Below, one piece after another: positions 39,143-40,713 of a stretch of DNA of 64,000 bases. Source of the stretch: Escherichia coli. Its GTDB lineage: Bacteria; Pseudomonadota; Gammaproteobacteria; Enterobacterales; Enterobacteriaceae. Within the stretch, counting starts at the first letter, position 1; each line of letters begins with the position of its first letter. The notes beneath the pieces were generated by a model. The model saw nothing but the letters and a program-made list of their open reading frames with translations. It was not told the origin of the DNA and did not search any database. Position numbers and translations under genes: made by a program. Where the stretch lies: assembly GCF_002854065.1 (NCBI RefSeq), contig NZ_CP024147.1; one strand, 5' to 3'.

Positions 39143-39702
39143 AAAAGTGGCTAGTGACGATTGCAGCACTGTGGCTGGCCGGATGCAGCTCCGGCGAAAT
39201 TAATAAAAACTATTACCAGTTACCTGTGGTGCAGAGCGGTACACAAAGTACCGCCAGCCAGGGCAATCGCCTGTTATGGGTAGAGCAGGTCGCTGTACCT
39301 GACTATCTGGCGGGGAATGGTGTGGTTTATCAAACCAGTGATGTGAAGTATGTGATTGCCAACAACAACTTGTGGGCCAGCCCGTTGGATCAACAGTTGC
39401 GCAACACCCTGGTTGCCAACCTGAGCACGCAACTGCCCGGCTGGGTGGTTGCCTCCCAGCCTCTGGGAAGCGCCCAGGACACGCTCAATGTTACCGTAAC
39501 GGAGTTTAACGGTCGCTATGATGGCAAGGTCATTGTCAGTGGTGAGTGGCTGTTGAACCACCAGGGACAACTGATCAAACGTCCGTTCCGTCTGGAAGGA
39601 GTGCAAACTCAGGATGGTTACGATGAGATGGTTAAAGTGCTGGCCAGTGTCTGGAGTCAGGAAGCCGCTTCTATTGCACAAGAGATAAAGCGTCTACCTT
39701 AA
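39139..39702 (+). CDS. pqiC: Lipoprotein PqiC (YmbA), 187 aa
   Basis: Lipobox LAGCSS after signal peptide; start overlaps pqiB stop (ATGA). Confidence 0.87.
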   Translation: MKKWLVTIAALWLAGCSSGEINKNYYQLPVVQSGTQSTASQGNRLLWVEQVAVPDYLAGNGVVYQTSDVKYVIANNNLWASPLDQQLRNTLVANLSTQLPGWVVASQPLGSAQDTLNVTVTEFNGRYDGKVIVSGEWLLNHQGQLIKRPFRLEGVQTQDGYDEMVKVLASVWSQEAASIAQEIKRLP

Positions 39703-39724: not shown

Positions 39725-39758
39725 CCGTCTCCGGTATGTTGCCTGAGGCGGTTTTTTT
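39725..39758 (+). terminator. Candidate rho-independent terminator after pqiC
   Basis: CCGTCTC...GAGGCGG stem with one G-U pair, followed by TTTTTTT. Confidence 0.45.
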
Positions 39759-39957
39759 GTTTCTAACGTGCGGAAAAAGTTGTTCCTCTTCACATTTTTT
39801 GTACAACCGACATGCCCGTGTAGCTCACAAATATGACAGTGGCGTGAATTTTGCGCATTGACGGCAGTTATGATTCGCGGTATTGCTTAACTGTGATTGC
39901 ACATTTAGTAATCACTGTTTTCTTTTCCACCAGAAACCAGTATGAGGGAAACGAGGC

Positions 39958-40125
39958 ATGAAGAGACAAAAACGAGATCGCCTGGAACGGGCACATCAAC
40001 GTGGTTATCAGGCCGGCATCGCCGGACGCTCAAAAGAAATGTGTCCCTATCAGACGCTGAATCAAAGGTCACAATGGCTGGGAGGCTGGCGAGAAGCCAT
40101 GGCGGACAGGGTAGTAATGGCCTGA
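39958..40125 (+). CDS. rmf: Ribosome modulation factor Rmf, 55 aa (absent from ORF track)
   Basis: ATG at 39958 gives MKRQKRDRLERAHQRGYQAGIAGRSKEMCPYQTLNQRSQWLGGWREAMADRVVMA, TGA at 40123-40125. Confidence 0.9.
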   Translation: MKRQKRDRLERAHQRGYQAGIAGRSKEMCPYQTLNQRSQWLGGWREAMADRVVMA

Positions 40126-40143
40126 TTCTGTCTCTTTAAAAAG

Positions 40144-40175
40144 AAACCTCCGCATTGCGGAGGTTTCGCCTTTTG
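40144..40175. terminator. Bidirectional terminator between convergent rmf and fabA
   Basis: CCTCCGC-att-GCGGAGG hairpin with T-runs on both strands. Confidence 0.6.
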
Positions 40176-40194
40176 ATACTCTGTCTGATTATAA

Positions 40195-40713
40195 TCAGAA
40201 GGCAGACGTATCCTGGAACAGACCGACTTTCAGGTCGCTGGCGGTATAGATCAGACGACCATCAACCAGCACTTCGCCATCTGCCAGACCCATAATCAGA
40301 CGACGATTAACAATGCGTTTAAAGTGAATACGGTAGGTCACTTTTTTCGCTGTCGGCAGTACCTGACCAGTGAATTTCACTTCGCCAACGCCCAGCGCGC
40401 GGCCTTTACCTTCGCCGCCCAGCCAGCCGAGGTAGAACCCTACCAGCTGCCACATTGCGTCCAGGCCCAGGCATCCCGGCATAACCGGATCGCCAATAAA
40501 GTGGCATCCGAAGAACCACAGATCCGGATTGATATCCAGTTCTGCTTCAACATACCCTTTGTCGAAGTTACCACCCGTTTCGGTCATTTTGACCACACGG
40601 TCCATCATCAGCATGTTCGGTGCTGGCAATTGCGGGCCTTTAGCGCCAAACAGTTCACCGCGACCAGAGGCAAGAAGGTCTTCTTTTGTATAGGATTCGC
40701 GTTTATCTACCAT
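40195..40713 (-). CDS. fabA: 3-hydroxydecanoyl-ACP dehydratase/isomerase FabA, 172 aa
   Basis: ATG at 40711-40713 gives [23 protein letters not shown]...; track ORF extends 66 codons upstream. Confidence 0.96.

What the first reader, a model, noticed from the sequence alone, without database searches (positions are those of the whole stretch)
39958..40125. rmf is present but missing from the supplied ORF track
The 55-codon ribosome modulation factor gene is clear in the sequence (MKRQKRDRLERAHQRGYQAGIAGRSKEMCPYQTLNQRSQWLGGWREAMADRVVMA). The track instead lists an overlapping 65-aa ORF in another frame (39942-40139), which is the wrong call. This suggests a minimum-length cut-off of about 60 aa that would hide other small proteins too.
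Basis: partly seen in the sequence, partly recalled or inferred. Interest (0 to 1): 0.3.

Follow-up and report, generated by a model that had tools for sequence, protein, structure and literature searches.

The report
Known E. coli rmf gene
The 55-codon gene is the well-known E. coli ribosome modulation factor gene rmf, which shuts ribosomes down in stationary phase; it was missing from the ORF list only because that list drops ORFs under 60 codons, so the finding is correct but ordinary.

Summary
It is E. coli rmf:
- It is 55/55 identical to the Rmf chain in solved hibernating-ribosome structures (6H4N, 4V8G).
- Pfam RMF scores E 1.7e-22, and the NCBIfam equivalog scores 92 bits against a cut-off of 40.
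- RefSeq annotates it as rmf between pqiC and fabA, and the stretch is found in 5425 of 5426 complete E. coli genomes.

The overlapping 65-aa ORF (39942..40139) is a by-product, not a gene:
- It matches no protein family and has no Shine-Dalgarno sequence.
- Stop codons interrupt its frame in 63 of 68 orthologous loci, while the rmf frame is open in all 68.
- Substitutions fall 49/31/185 on rmf codon positions 1/2/3.

In this window rmf is the only recognisable gene that the cut-off hides. The other 29 intergenic ORFs of 30-59 aa match nothing, and neither the K-12 nor the PGAP annotation has another CDS under 60 aa.

One side observation: the rmf promoter and leader are strongly conserved across enterobacterial genera, including a covarying dyad or hairpin at the transcription start. 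Nothing here is new.

The parts
39958..40125 (+). rmf coding sequence (55 codons plus TGA), encoding ribosome modulation factor
   Evidence: Translation. 55/55 identity to PDB 6H4N_v and 4V8G_AV. Pfam PF04957 at 79.6 bits against 27.9. NCBIfam NF011162 equivalog at 92.1 bits against 40. RefSeq annotation as rmf, b0953. Frame open in 68/68 orthologues, with third-position-biased substitutions.
39944..39948 (+). Shine-Dalgarno sequence GAGGG for the rmf ATG. A second GAGG lies at 39953-39956, too close to the ATG to serve as the SD.
   Evidence: Duplex with the 16S 3' end is -6.1 kcal/mol, in the top 8% of 2011 ATGs in the window. It lies inside the 65-aa ORF, whose own ATG has no SD (+0.2). It is invariant in 14 of the 16 leader sequences aligned.
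39942..40139 (+). 65-aa ORF in the -1 frame relative to rmf: a chance open frame, not a gene
   Evidence: Listed mechanically. No Pfam or NCBIfam match at E<=1. No SD. Stop codons in this frame in 63/68 orthologues, including Citrobacter and Enterobacter. 5-19 aa changes out of 54, against 3-8 out of 55 in the rmf frame.
39819..39886 (+). Conserved rmf promoter region, including an invariant -35-like TTGACG (39858-39863) and TATTGC (39881-39886) 17 bp downstream
   Evidence: Alignment of 11 enterobacterial genera. The consensus promoter scan itself found no site here. The literature reports a single sigma-70 promoter with its TSS 58 nt upstream of the ATG, about 39900 (PMC6134199), and regulation by ppGpp, cAMP-CRP, ArcA, McbR, RcdA, SdiA, SlyA and FNR. 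The exact hexamers are my inference.
39894..39914 (+). Conserved dyad or hairpin: TGATTGC, a 7-nt loop, then GTAATCA, at the transcription start
   Evidence: Inverted repeat. 93% of cells paired across 15 distinct sequences, 5 of 7 pairs with changes on both sides, and 0/500 shuffles reach the covariation score. Folding from 39893 gives -17.8 kcal/mol (z -2.6), but folding from 39900 gives -8.9 (z -0.3). Whether it acts as RNA or as a DNA operator is unresolved.
39915..39957 (+). rmf 5' leader, almost invariant across enterobacterial genera. A predicted second hairpin pairs UUUCC (39924-39928) with GGGAA (39946-39950), which overlaps the SD.
   Evidence: Alignments and fold. There is no variation, so the pairing cannot be tested by covariation. 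No Rfam family matches, even at E<=10.
40143..40176 (.). Bidirectional intrinsic terminator shared by the convergent rmf and fabA genes: an 11-bp GC-rich stem at 40143-40167, with T-runs on both strands
   Evidence: Terminator scan on both strands. Folds of -20.2 kcal/mol (z -5.5) and -19.6 kcal/mol (z -4.9). The stem is almost invariant in 11 genera: Pluralibacter carries a compensated A-T to G-C change. From memory, Aiso et al. 2005 mapped rmf mRNA 3' ends to this terminator; that paper was not held.
39139..39702 (+). Upstream neighbour pqiC, followed by its own terminator hairpin at 39738-39759
   Evidence: Annotation, terminator scan, and conserved structure with variable sequence.
40195..40713 (-). 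Downstream convergent neighbour fabA
   Evidence: Annotation. The convergent rmf/fabA arrangement is kept in 49 of 67 gammaproteobacterial loci.

Best explanation
Window 39958..40125 (+) is the chromosomal rmf gene of Escherichia coli. It encodes the 55-residue, 6.5-kDa, basic (pI about 10.9) ribosome modulation factor. According to the literature, transcription starts about 58 nt upstream from a sigma-70 promoter. That promoter is switched on at entry into stationary phase by ppGpp and cAMP-CRP and is modulated by several other regulators. Translation starts at the ATG at 39958, served by the GAGGG Shine-Dalgarno 10 nt upstream. The transcript ends at the hairpin terminator at 40143-40167, which it shares with the convergent fabA gene. 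Rmf binds the 30S subunit next to the 3' end of 16S rRNA, where it blocks the Shine-Dalgarno/anti-Shine-Dalgarno interaction. It drives two 70S ribosomes into a 90S dimer, which HPF then matures into the inactive 100S 'hibernating' ribosome. The gene was absent from the ORF list only because the list has a 60-aa floor. The 65-aa ORF that appeared instead is a chance open frame overlapping rmf. Shown here: the identity of the gene, its frame, its ribosome-binding site, its terminator, and conservation of gene, neighbourhood and flanks. Taken from the literature and solved structures, not tested here: ribosome binding, dimerisation and regulation.
For: The translation is exact. It is 100% identical over 55/55 residues to 'Ribosome modulation factor' chains in E. 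coli 100S cryo-EM entries and the T. thermophilus 70S complex (6H4N, 6H58, 9IOT, 4V8G), and E 4e-19 to the Vibrio RMF NMR structure 2JRM. Pfam RMF E 1.7e-22 and NCBIfam equivalog NF011162 E 1.4e-26, both well above curated cut-offs. RefSeq (PGAP and curated K-12 b0953) annotates rmf at exactly these coordinates between pqiC and fabA, and the stretch is present in 5425/5426 complete E. coli genomes. SD -6.1 kcal/mol. Strong bidirectional terminator. 67 orthologues found in other gammaproteobacterial genomes; the frame is open in all of them, and substitutions against E. coli fall 49/31/185 by codon position. MW 6507 and pI 10.86 match the published 6.5 k basic protein (PMC8778775). Mechanism and regulation: PMC10746276, PMC6134199, PMC8778775, PMC3688515.
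Against: Nothing found argues against the identification. There are three limits. Expression and function in this particular strain were not measured and cannot be with these tools. The consensus promoter scan found no sigma-70 site in the region, as expected for a weak, activator-dependent promoter, so the promoter elements listed are inferred. The published TSS (-58) does not fit neatly with the conserved TTGACG-17-TATTGC pair, which predicts a start near -65.
Confidence: 0.99

Rival explanations
1. The 65-aa ORF 39942..40139 is the true gene, or a second, overlapping gene translated from the same mRNA in another frame.
For: It is open, starts with ATG, is longer than rmf, and lies within the rmf transcript. 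The frame is also open in E. albertii, Pseudescherichia vulneris, Superficieibacter electus and Serratia bockelmannii.
Against: No Pfam or NCBIfam match at E<=1. Its ATG has no SD (+0.2 kcal/mol, worse than 80% of ATGs in the window). Stop codons interrupt the frame in 63/68 orthologous loci, including close relatives such as Citrobacter and Enterobacter. Its predicted product changes 2-4 times faster than Rmf, and substitutions concentrate on rmf third positions, which are its second positions. It is not annotated in K-12 or by PGAP.
Confidence: 0.01
2. The 55-codon ORF is a chance open frame or a decayed relic that merely resembles rmf.
For: ORFs of this length are common by chance: 282 ORFs of at least 55 aa in the window against about 58 genes.
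Against: It is identical to the experimentally observed protein. It is conserved in 5425/5426 E. coli genomes at 99% identity or more in nearly all. The frame is intact and under purifying selection across Gammaproteobacteria. The SD, leader and terminator are conserved.
Confidence: 0
3. The gap in the ORF track signals a wider problem: several real small-protein genes in this window are hidden by the 60-aa cut-off.
For: The cut-off is real. 409 ORFs of 30-59 aa exist in the window. Small proteins are under-represented in family libraries and annotations generally (established knowledge).
Against: Curated K-12 annotation, which includes experimentally verified small proteins, and PGAP both list rmf as the only CDS under 60 aa across the window. 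The other 29 intergenic ORFs of 30-59 aa give no Pfam or NCBIfam hit at E<=0.01, while Rmf, run in the same batch as a positive control, does.
Confidence: 0.1

Closest known systems
E. coli K-12 Rmf (b0953, NP_415473.1; PDB 6H4N chain v, 4V8G chain AV)
   Same: The protein sequence is identical (55/55). The CDS is found exactly in the K-12 stretch fetched. The neighbours are the same (pqiC upstream, fabA convergent downstream), as is the terminator.
   Different: Nothing in the gene itself. The pqiC-rmf-fabA segment as a whole is not base-for-base identical to K-12, and the window is about 98-99% identical to K-12 overall. The window is closer to strain CUWW06 (99.96-100%).
Vibrio parahaemolyticus RMF (PDB 2JRM) and other gammaproteobacterial Rmf orthologues
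   Same: Same family: E 4e-19 over residues 1-50. The motifs MKRQKRD...RA...GY.AG..G......CP.......WLGGWRE are conserved, and most orthologues are also convergent with fabA.
   Different: Sequence identity is 51-80% outside Enterobacteriaceae, the C-terminal tails vary (49-68 aa), and pqiC is not the upstream neighbour outside Enterobacterales.
Rmf/CrpP-fold proteins (NCBIfam NF041886, CrpP NF033696, phage Rmf-like NF041887)
   Same: Shared small fold and core motif. Rmf scores 51 bits on the Rmf/CrpP family model.
   Different: The window protein is below the cut-off for the CrpP and phage-specific models (19.8 bits against 55; 24.1 against 40) and far above it for the Rmf equivalog. It is chromosomal and syntenic, not on an ICE, plasmid or phage.
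Pseudomonas 'rmf' 5' leader RNA motif in Rfam (accession RF01755, recalled from memory)
   Same: Both are conserved structured regions just upstream of rmf.
   Different: Nothing in the window's rmf leader matches that family or any other Rfam family, at gathering score or at E<=10. The enterobacterial leader is a separate, apparently uncatalogued sequence.

Membership tests
Ribosome modulation factor (Pfam PF04957 / NCBIfam NF011162 equivalog) | Sequence scores above the curated family thresholds over nearly the full model | tested here: met
   PF04957: 79.6 bits against 27.9, model positions 1-52 of 53. NF011162: 92.1 bits against 40, model positions 1-47 of 47.
Ribosome modulation factor (Pfam PF04957 / NCBIfam NF011162 equivalog) | Identity with a protein experimentally seen bound to the ribosome | tested here: met
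   55/55 identical to the Rmf chains of 6H4N, 6H58 and 9IOT (E. coli) and of 4V8G.
Ribosome modulation factor (Pfam PF04957 / NCBIfam NF011162 equivalog) | Small (about 55 aa, 6.5 kDa) basic protein | tested here: met
   55 aa, MW 6507, pI 10.86, 12 K+R against 5 D+E. The published description matches (PMC8778775).
Ribosome modulation factor (Pfam PF04957 / NCBIfam NF011162 equivalog) | Orthologous genomic position (pqiC - rmf - fabA in Enterobacteriaceae; convergent with fabA more widely) | tested here: met
   RefSeq annotation. Of the 12 enterobacterial 55-aa loci, 10 have both neighbours in the stretch held. 49/67 loci overall have convergent fabA.
Ribosome modulation factor (Pfam PF04957 / NCBIfam NF011162 equivalog) | Reading frame under purifying selection across Gammaproteobacteria | tested here: met
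   Frame open in 68/68. Differences against E. coli by codon position are 49/31/185, and variable sites are 20/14/47.
Ribosome modulation factor (Pfam PF04957 / NCBIfam NF011162 equivalog) | Binds the 30S subunit near the anti-SD sequence and dimerises 70S ribosomes into 90S/100S particles together with HPF | not testable with these tools
   Taken from the solved structures and the literature (PMC10746276; PMC8778775). It follows by sequence identity but was not measured for this strain.
Ribosome modulation factor (Pfam PF04957 / NCBIfam NF011162 equivalog) | Stationary-phase, ppGpp-dependent expression | not testable with these tools
   Literature only. The upstream region is highly conserved, but no consensus sigma-70 site was found.
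CrpP / ICE-associated Rmf-like proteins (NF033696) | Score above the family cut-off, with a mobile-element context | tested here: not met
   19.8 bits against a cut-off of 55. The locus is chromosomal and syntenic.

The most novel reading that the evidence does not exclude
The gene itself is not novel. The most novel reading the evidence leaves open concerns the rmf leader. The covarying 7-bp stem at 39894-39914, together with the almost invariant 43-nt leader that can pair with the Shine-Dalgarno sequence, may form an uncatalogued enterobacterial cis-regulatory RNA. It would contribute to the unusually long, growth-phase-dependent half-life of rmf mRNA and/or gate its translation. This requires the transcript to start near 39893 rather than at the published -58. 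The alternative is that the dyad is a DNA operator spanning the start site.
Probability: 0.2. Interest if true: 0.3.

Novelty: already known. Interest (0 to 1): 0.04.

Why it matters
Biologically it does not add anything: rmf has been known since the early 1990s, its product has been seen on the ribosome at near-atomic resolution, and it is annotated in essentially every E. coli genome. The value is methodological. A fixed 60-aa floor in a mechanical ORF list hides a real, important gene and shows a meaningless overlapping ORF in its place, so downstream readers should not treat that list as gene calls. In this window, however, rmf is the only recognisable casualty, and dropping the floor to 30 codons would more than double the list with noise. 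Homology or conservation filters are the right remedy, not a lower length threshold alone.

Tried and rejected
1. I assumed the window was co-linear with strain CUWW06. That was wrong for the first 23.9 kb (18003 mismatches). BLAST mapping showed an offset caused by an extra 1.34 kb in the window, and I corrected the coordinates before defining intergenic regions.
2. I tried using within-E. coli diversity for a reading-frame test. The locus is at least 99% identical in 5407/5425 genomes, which is too little variation. I replaced it with a cross-species set from one degenerate-pattern scan.
3. The consensus sigma-70 scan found 0 sites around rmf. My attempts to place CRP, FNR or -10 elements by eye were not convincing, and I do not report them as findings.
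4. The two primary papers that would fix the TSS and the mRNA ends were not held: Shimada 2013 (PMC3650541) and Aiso 2005 (PMC1064039 / its DOI). One search call failed on a syntax restriction.
5. The FNR ChIP peak and its -98.5 site could not be converted into an exact TSS.
6. Rfam at a permissive threshold gave only sub-threshold matches to the terminator hairpins and nothing for the leader.
7. I did not use the large protein-database searches, structure prediction or fold search, because identity to solved structures made them unnecessary.

Full report
**Observation.** The sequence at window 39958..40125 on the + strand begins with ATG, ends with TGA and has 55 sense codons. Listing ORFs down to 20 aa shows both this ORF and a 65-aa ORF at 39942..40139 in another frame of the same strand. 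With the lister's default 60-aa minimum, only the 65-aa ORF appears. An open frame of 55 codons is not significant by itself. The window contains 282 ORFs of at least 55 aa and 409 of 30-59 aa, against about 58 annotated genes.

**Identity.**
- The product matches Pfam RMF (PF04957) at E 1.7e-22, with 79.6 bits against a gathering score of 27.9.
- It matches the NCBIfam equivalog 'ribosome modulation factor' (NF011162) at E 1.4e-26, with 92.1 bits against a cut-off of 40.
- It is 55/55 identical to the 'Ribosome modulation factor' chains of E. coli hibernating-ribosome entries 6H4N, 6H58 and 9IOT and of 4V8G. It is related at E 4e-19 to the Vibrio RMF structure 2JRM.
- A 901-bp stretch around it is found in 5425 of 5426 complete E. 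coli genomes. There it is annotated pqiC - rmf - fabA.
- In strain CUWW06 and in K-12 MG1655 (b0953) the rmf CDS sits at exactly the corresponding coordinates. The CDS is base-identical to K-12.
- The protein is 6507 Da with pI 10.86, matching the published description of a 55-residue, 6.5-k basic protein (PMC8778775).

**Which frame is real.** Four independent lines favour the 55-codon frame and reject the 65-codon one.
1. The 65-aa product matches nothing in Pfam or NCBIfam, even at E<=1.
2. The rmf ATG is preceded by GAGGG at 39944-39948. This pairs with the 16S 3' end at -6.1 kcal/mol, in the top 8% of all 2011 ATGs in the window. The ATG at 39942 has no pairing at all (+0.2).
3. A degenerate DNA pattern for the WLGGWRE motif, scanned across one genome per species, returned 120 loci. 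Of these, 67 encode Rmf by tblastn; all named ones are gammaproteobacterial. The rmf frame is open in all 68 sequences. The frame of the 65-aa ORF carries stop codons in 63 of 68, including Citrobacter, Enterobacter, Leclercia, Kluyvera and Pluralibacter.
4. Among 13 enterobacterial orthologues of exactly 55 codons, nucleotide differences from E. coli fall 49, 31 and 185 on rmf codon positions 1, 2 and 3. Variable sites are 20, 14 and 47 of 55. The rmf product differs at 3-8 of 55 residues in the Enterobacteriaceae, while the alternative-frame product differs at 5-19 of 54. The pairwise counts are not phylogenetically independent, so the chi-square value printed there is descriptive only. The direction is still unambiguous.

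**The cut-off and other small genes.** The ORF list is described by its own tool as purely mechanical. The 65-aa entry is therefore not a gene call that went wrong; it is simply the only ORF above the length floor.
- I checked two annotations of this chromosomal stretch: PGAP for CUWW06 (99.96-100% identical to the window) and the curated K-12 record. In both, rmf is the only CDS under 60 aa.
- I extracted every ORF of 30-59 aa lying at least 80% in intergenic DNA, which gave 29 besides rmf. I scanned them against NCBIfam and Pfam with Rmf included as a positive control. Only Rmf matched.

So within the reach of these libraries rmf is the only recognisable gene that the cut-off hides here. I did not screen ORFs under 30 aa or ORFs nested in annotated genes, and family libraries are known to be thin for very small proteins.

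**Anatomy of the locus.**
- *Upstream.* pqiC ends at 39702 and has its own terminator hairpin at 39738-39759.
- *Promoter region.* The 255-bp spacer before rmf is unusually well conserved across 11 enterobacterial genera. Conserved parts include a block at 39819-39863 with an invariant TTGACG (39858-39863), TATT at 39881-39884, and an almost invariant leader from 39915 to the ATG.
- *Published regulation.* The literature places a single sigma-70 promoter with its start 58 nt upstream of the ATG, about 39900. [quoted passage not shown] CsrA affects rmf indirectly, at the level of transcription (PMC10746276).
- *Downstream.* An 11-bp GC-rich hairpin at 40143-40167 is flanked by T-runs on both strands. 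It scores as a terminator in both directions and folds at -20.2 and -19.6 kcal/mol, with z-scores of -5.5 and -4.9. It serves the convergent rmf and fabA genes. From memory, Aiso et al. 2005 mapped rmf mRNA 3' ends to this terminator with very short oligo(A) tails. That paper was not held, but a held paper confirms the short tails (PMC1636475).
- *Neighbourhood.* The convergent rmf/fabA arrangement is kept in 49 of 67 loci across Gammaproteobacteria.

**Mechanism (from established knowledge, by sequence identity).** Rmf binds the 30S subunit at the site where the mRNA Shine-Dalgarno sequence pairs with the 3' end of 16S rRNA, and so blocks initiation. It promotes dimerisation of 70S ribosomes into a 90S particle, which HPF converts into the stable, inactive 100S ribosome. 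The process reverses within minutes of nutrient upshift (PMC10746276; PMC8778775; structures). None of this was or could be tested here.

**A side observation that is not fully explained.** An inverted repeat lies at 39894-39900 / 39908-39914 (TGATTGC, a 7-nt loop, then GTAATCA). It keeps its pairing through compensatory and G-U-type changes in other genera:
- 93% of cells are paired in 15 distinct sequences.
- 5 of 7 pairs show changes on both sides.
- 0 of 500 shuffles reach the observed covariation score.
- Slid registers give 17-63% pairing.

If the transcript began at about 39893, as the invariant TTGACG-17 bp-TATTGC pair would predict, this would be a 5'-terminal stem-loop. That is the classic mRNA-stabilising arrangement, and it would fit the reported 24-min half-life of rmf mRNA. 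Folding from 39893 gives -17.8 kcal/mol (z -2.6), against -8.9 (z -0.3) from 39900. The published start at -58 would cut the 5' arm. In that case the dyad is more likely a protein-binding operator across the start site. I could not resolve this, because the primary TSS papers were not available. No Rfam family matches the leader at any threshold, including the Pseudomonas rmf leader motif that I recall being in Rfam.

**Verdict.** What is there is a textbook gene that is annotated everywhere. Novelty: already known. Interest is low. The useful message is practical: do not read the ORF list as gene calls, and rescue small genes by homology or conservation rather than by lowering the length threshold alone.

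Noticed in passing
window 22605-23947: About 1.34 kb is present in the window but absent at this site in both CUWW06 and K-12. It encodes IS2 proteins: NF006928 'IS2 repressor TnpA' at 276 bits and NF006918 'IS2 transposase TnpB' at 728 bits. It sits inside the fimbrial usher gene elfC, which is therefore disrupted in this strain. The flanking BLAST blocks overlap by 9 bp.
   Followed up: partly
window 39894-39914: A conserved, covarying dyad or hairpin lies at the rmf transcription start: 93% paired, 5/7 pairs with double changes, 0/500 shuffles. Its position conflicts with the published TSS (-58) if it acts as RNA. It could be a 5'-terminal mRNA-stabilising stem-loop or a DNA operator.
   Followed up: partly
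window 39915-39957: The rmf 5' leader is almost invariant across about 14 enterobacterial genera, more conserved than the synonymous sites of the coding region. It can fold so that UUUCC (39924-39928) pairs with the GGGAA of the Shine-Dalgarno region. No Rfam family matches it.
   Followed up: partly
window 40143-40176; loci L005-L124: The convergent rmf/fabA pair shares one bidirectional terminator. The convergent arrangement is kept in 49 of 67 gammaproteobacterial loci, from Enterobacteriaceae to Shewanella, Pseudoalteromonas and Vibrio.
   Followed up: partly
L018/L019, L033/L034, L106/L107, L062/L063: Three Colwellia genomes and one Alteromonadaceae MAG carry two diverged rmf copies each. 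In the two Colwellia genomes with enough flank (L018/L019, L106/L107) and in the MAG, fabA was found next to only one copy. For L033/L034 no fabA was found, but L033 is only 1.7 kb.
   Followed up: no
window 28943-29016 (+): The PyrD leader (Rfam RF02373, 97.9 bits against a gathering score of 47) lies immediately upstream of pyrD. This is the expected known element.
   Followed up: no
window 55883-55967 (-): A tRNA (Rfam RF00005, 57.5 bits), annotated as tRNA-Ser(UGA) serT in K-12.
   Followed up: no
hit H40, NZ_CP018243.1 (E. coli strain 350): The match to the rmf region starts only at query base 77 (about window 39836), and the record has two places. This suggests an insertion or rearrangement in the rmf upstream region of that strain. 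Also, one of 5426 complete E. coli genomes has no match, and 4 matches lie on records labelled as plasmids.
   Followed up: no
L042-L050 and L083-L089 (Rothia nasisuis, R. nasimurium): The degenerate WLGGWRE DNA pattern hits 9 and 7 separate places in these two Actinomycetota genomes. None is Rmf by tblastn, so this is presumably a repeated element or gene family that happens to contain the pattern.
   Followed up: no
window 39900-40180 (+): The whole predicted rmf transcript folds more stably than shuffled controls: -96 kcal/mol against a mean of -78.3, z -3.3, with 0 of 200 shuffles as stable. This is in keeping with its reported long half-life, but I did not dissect it further.
   Followed up: no
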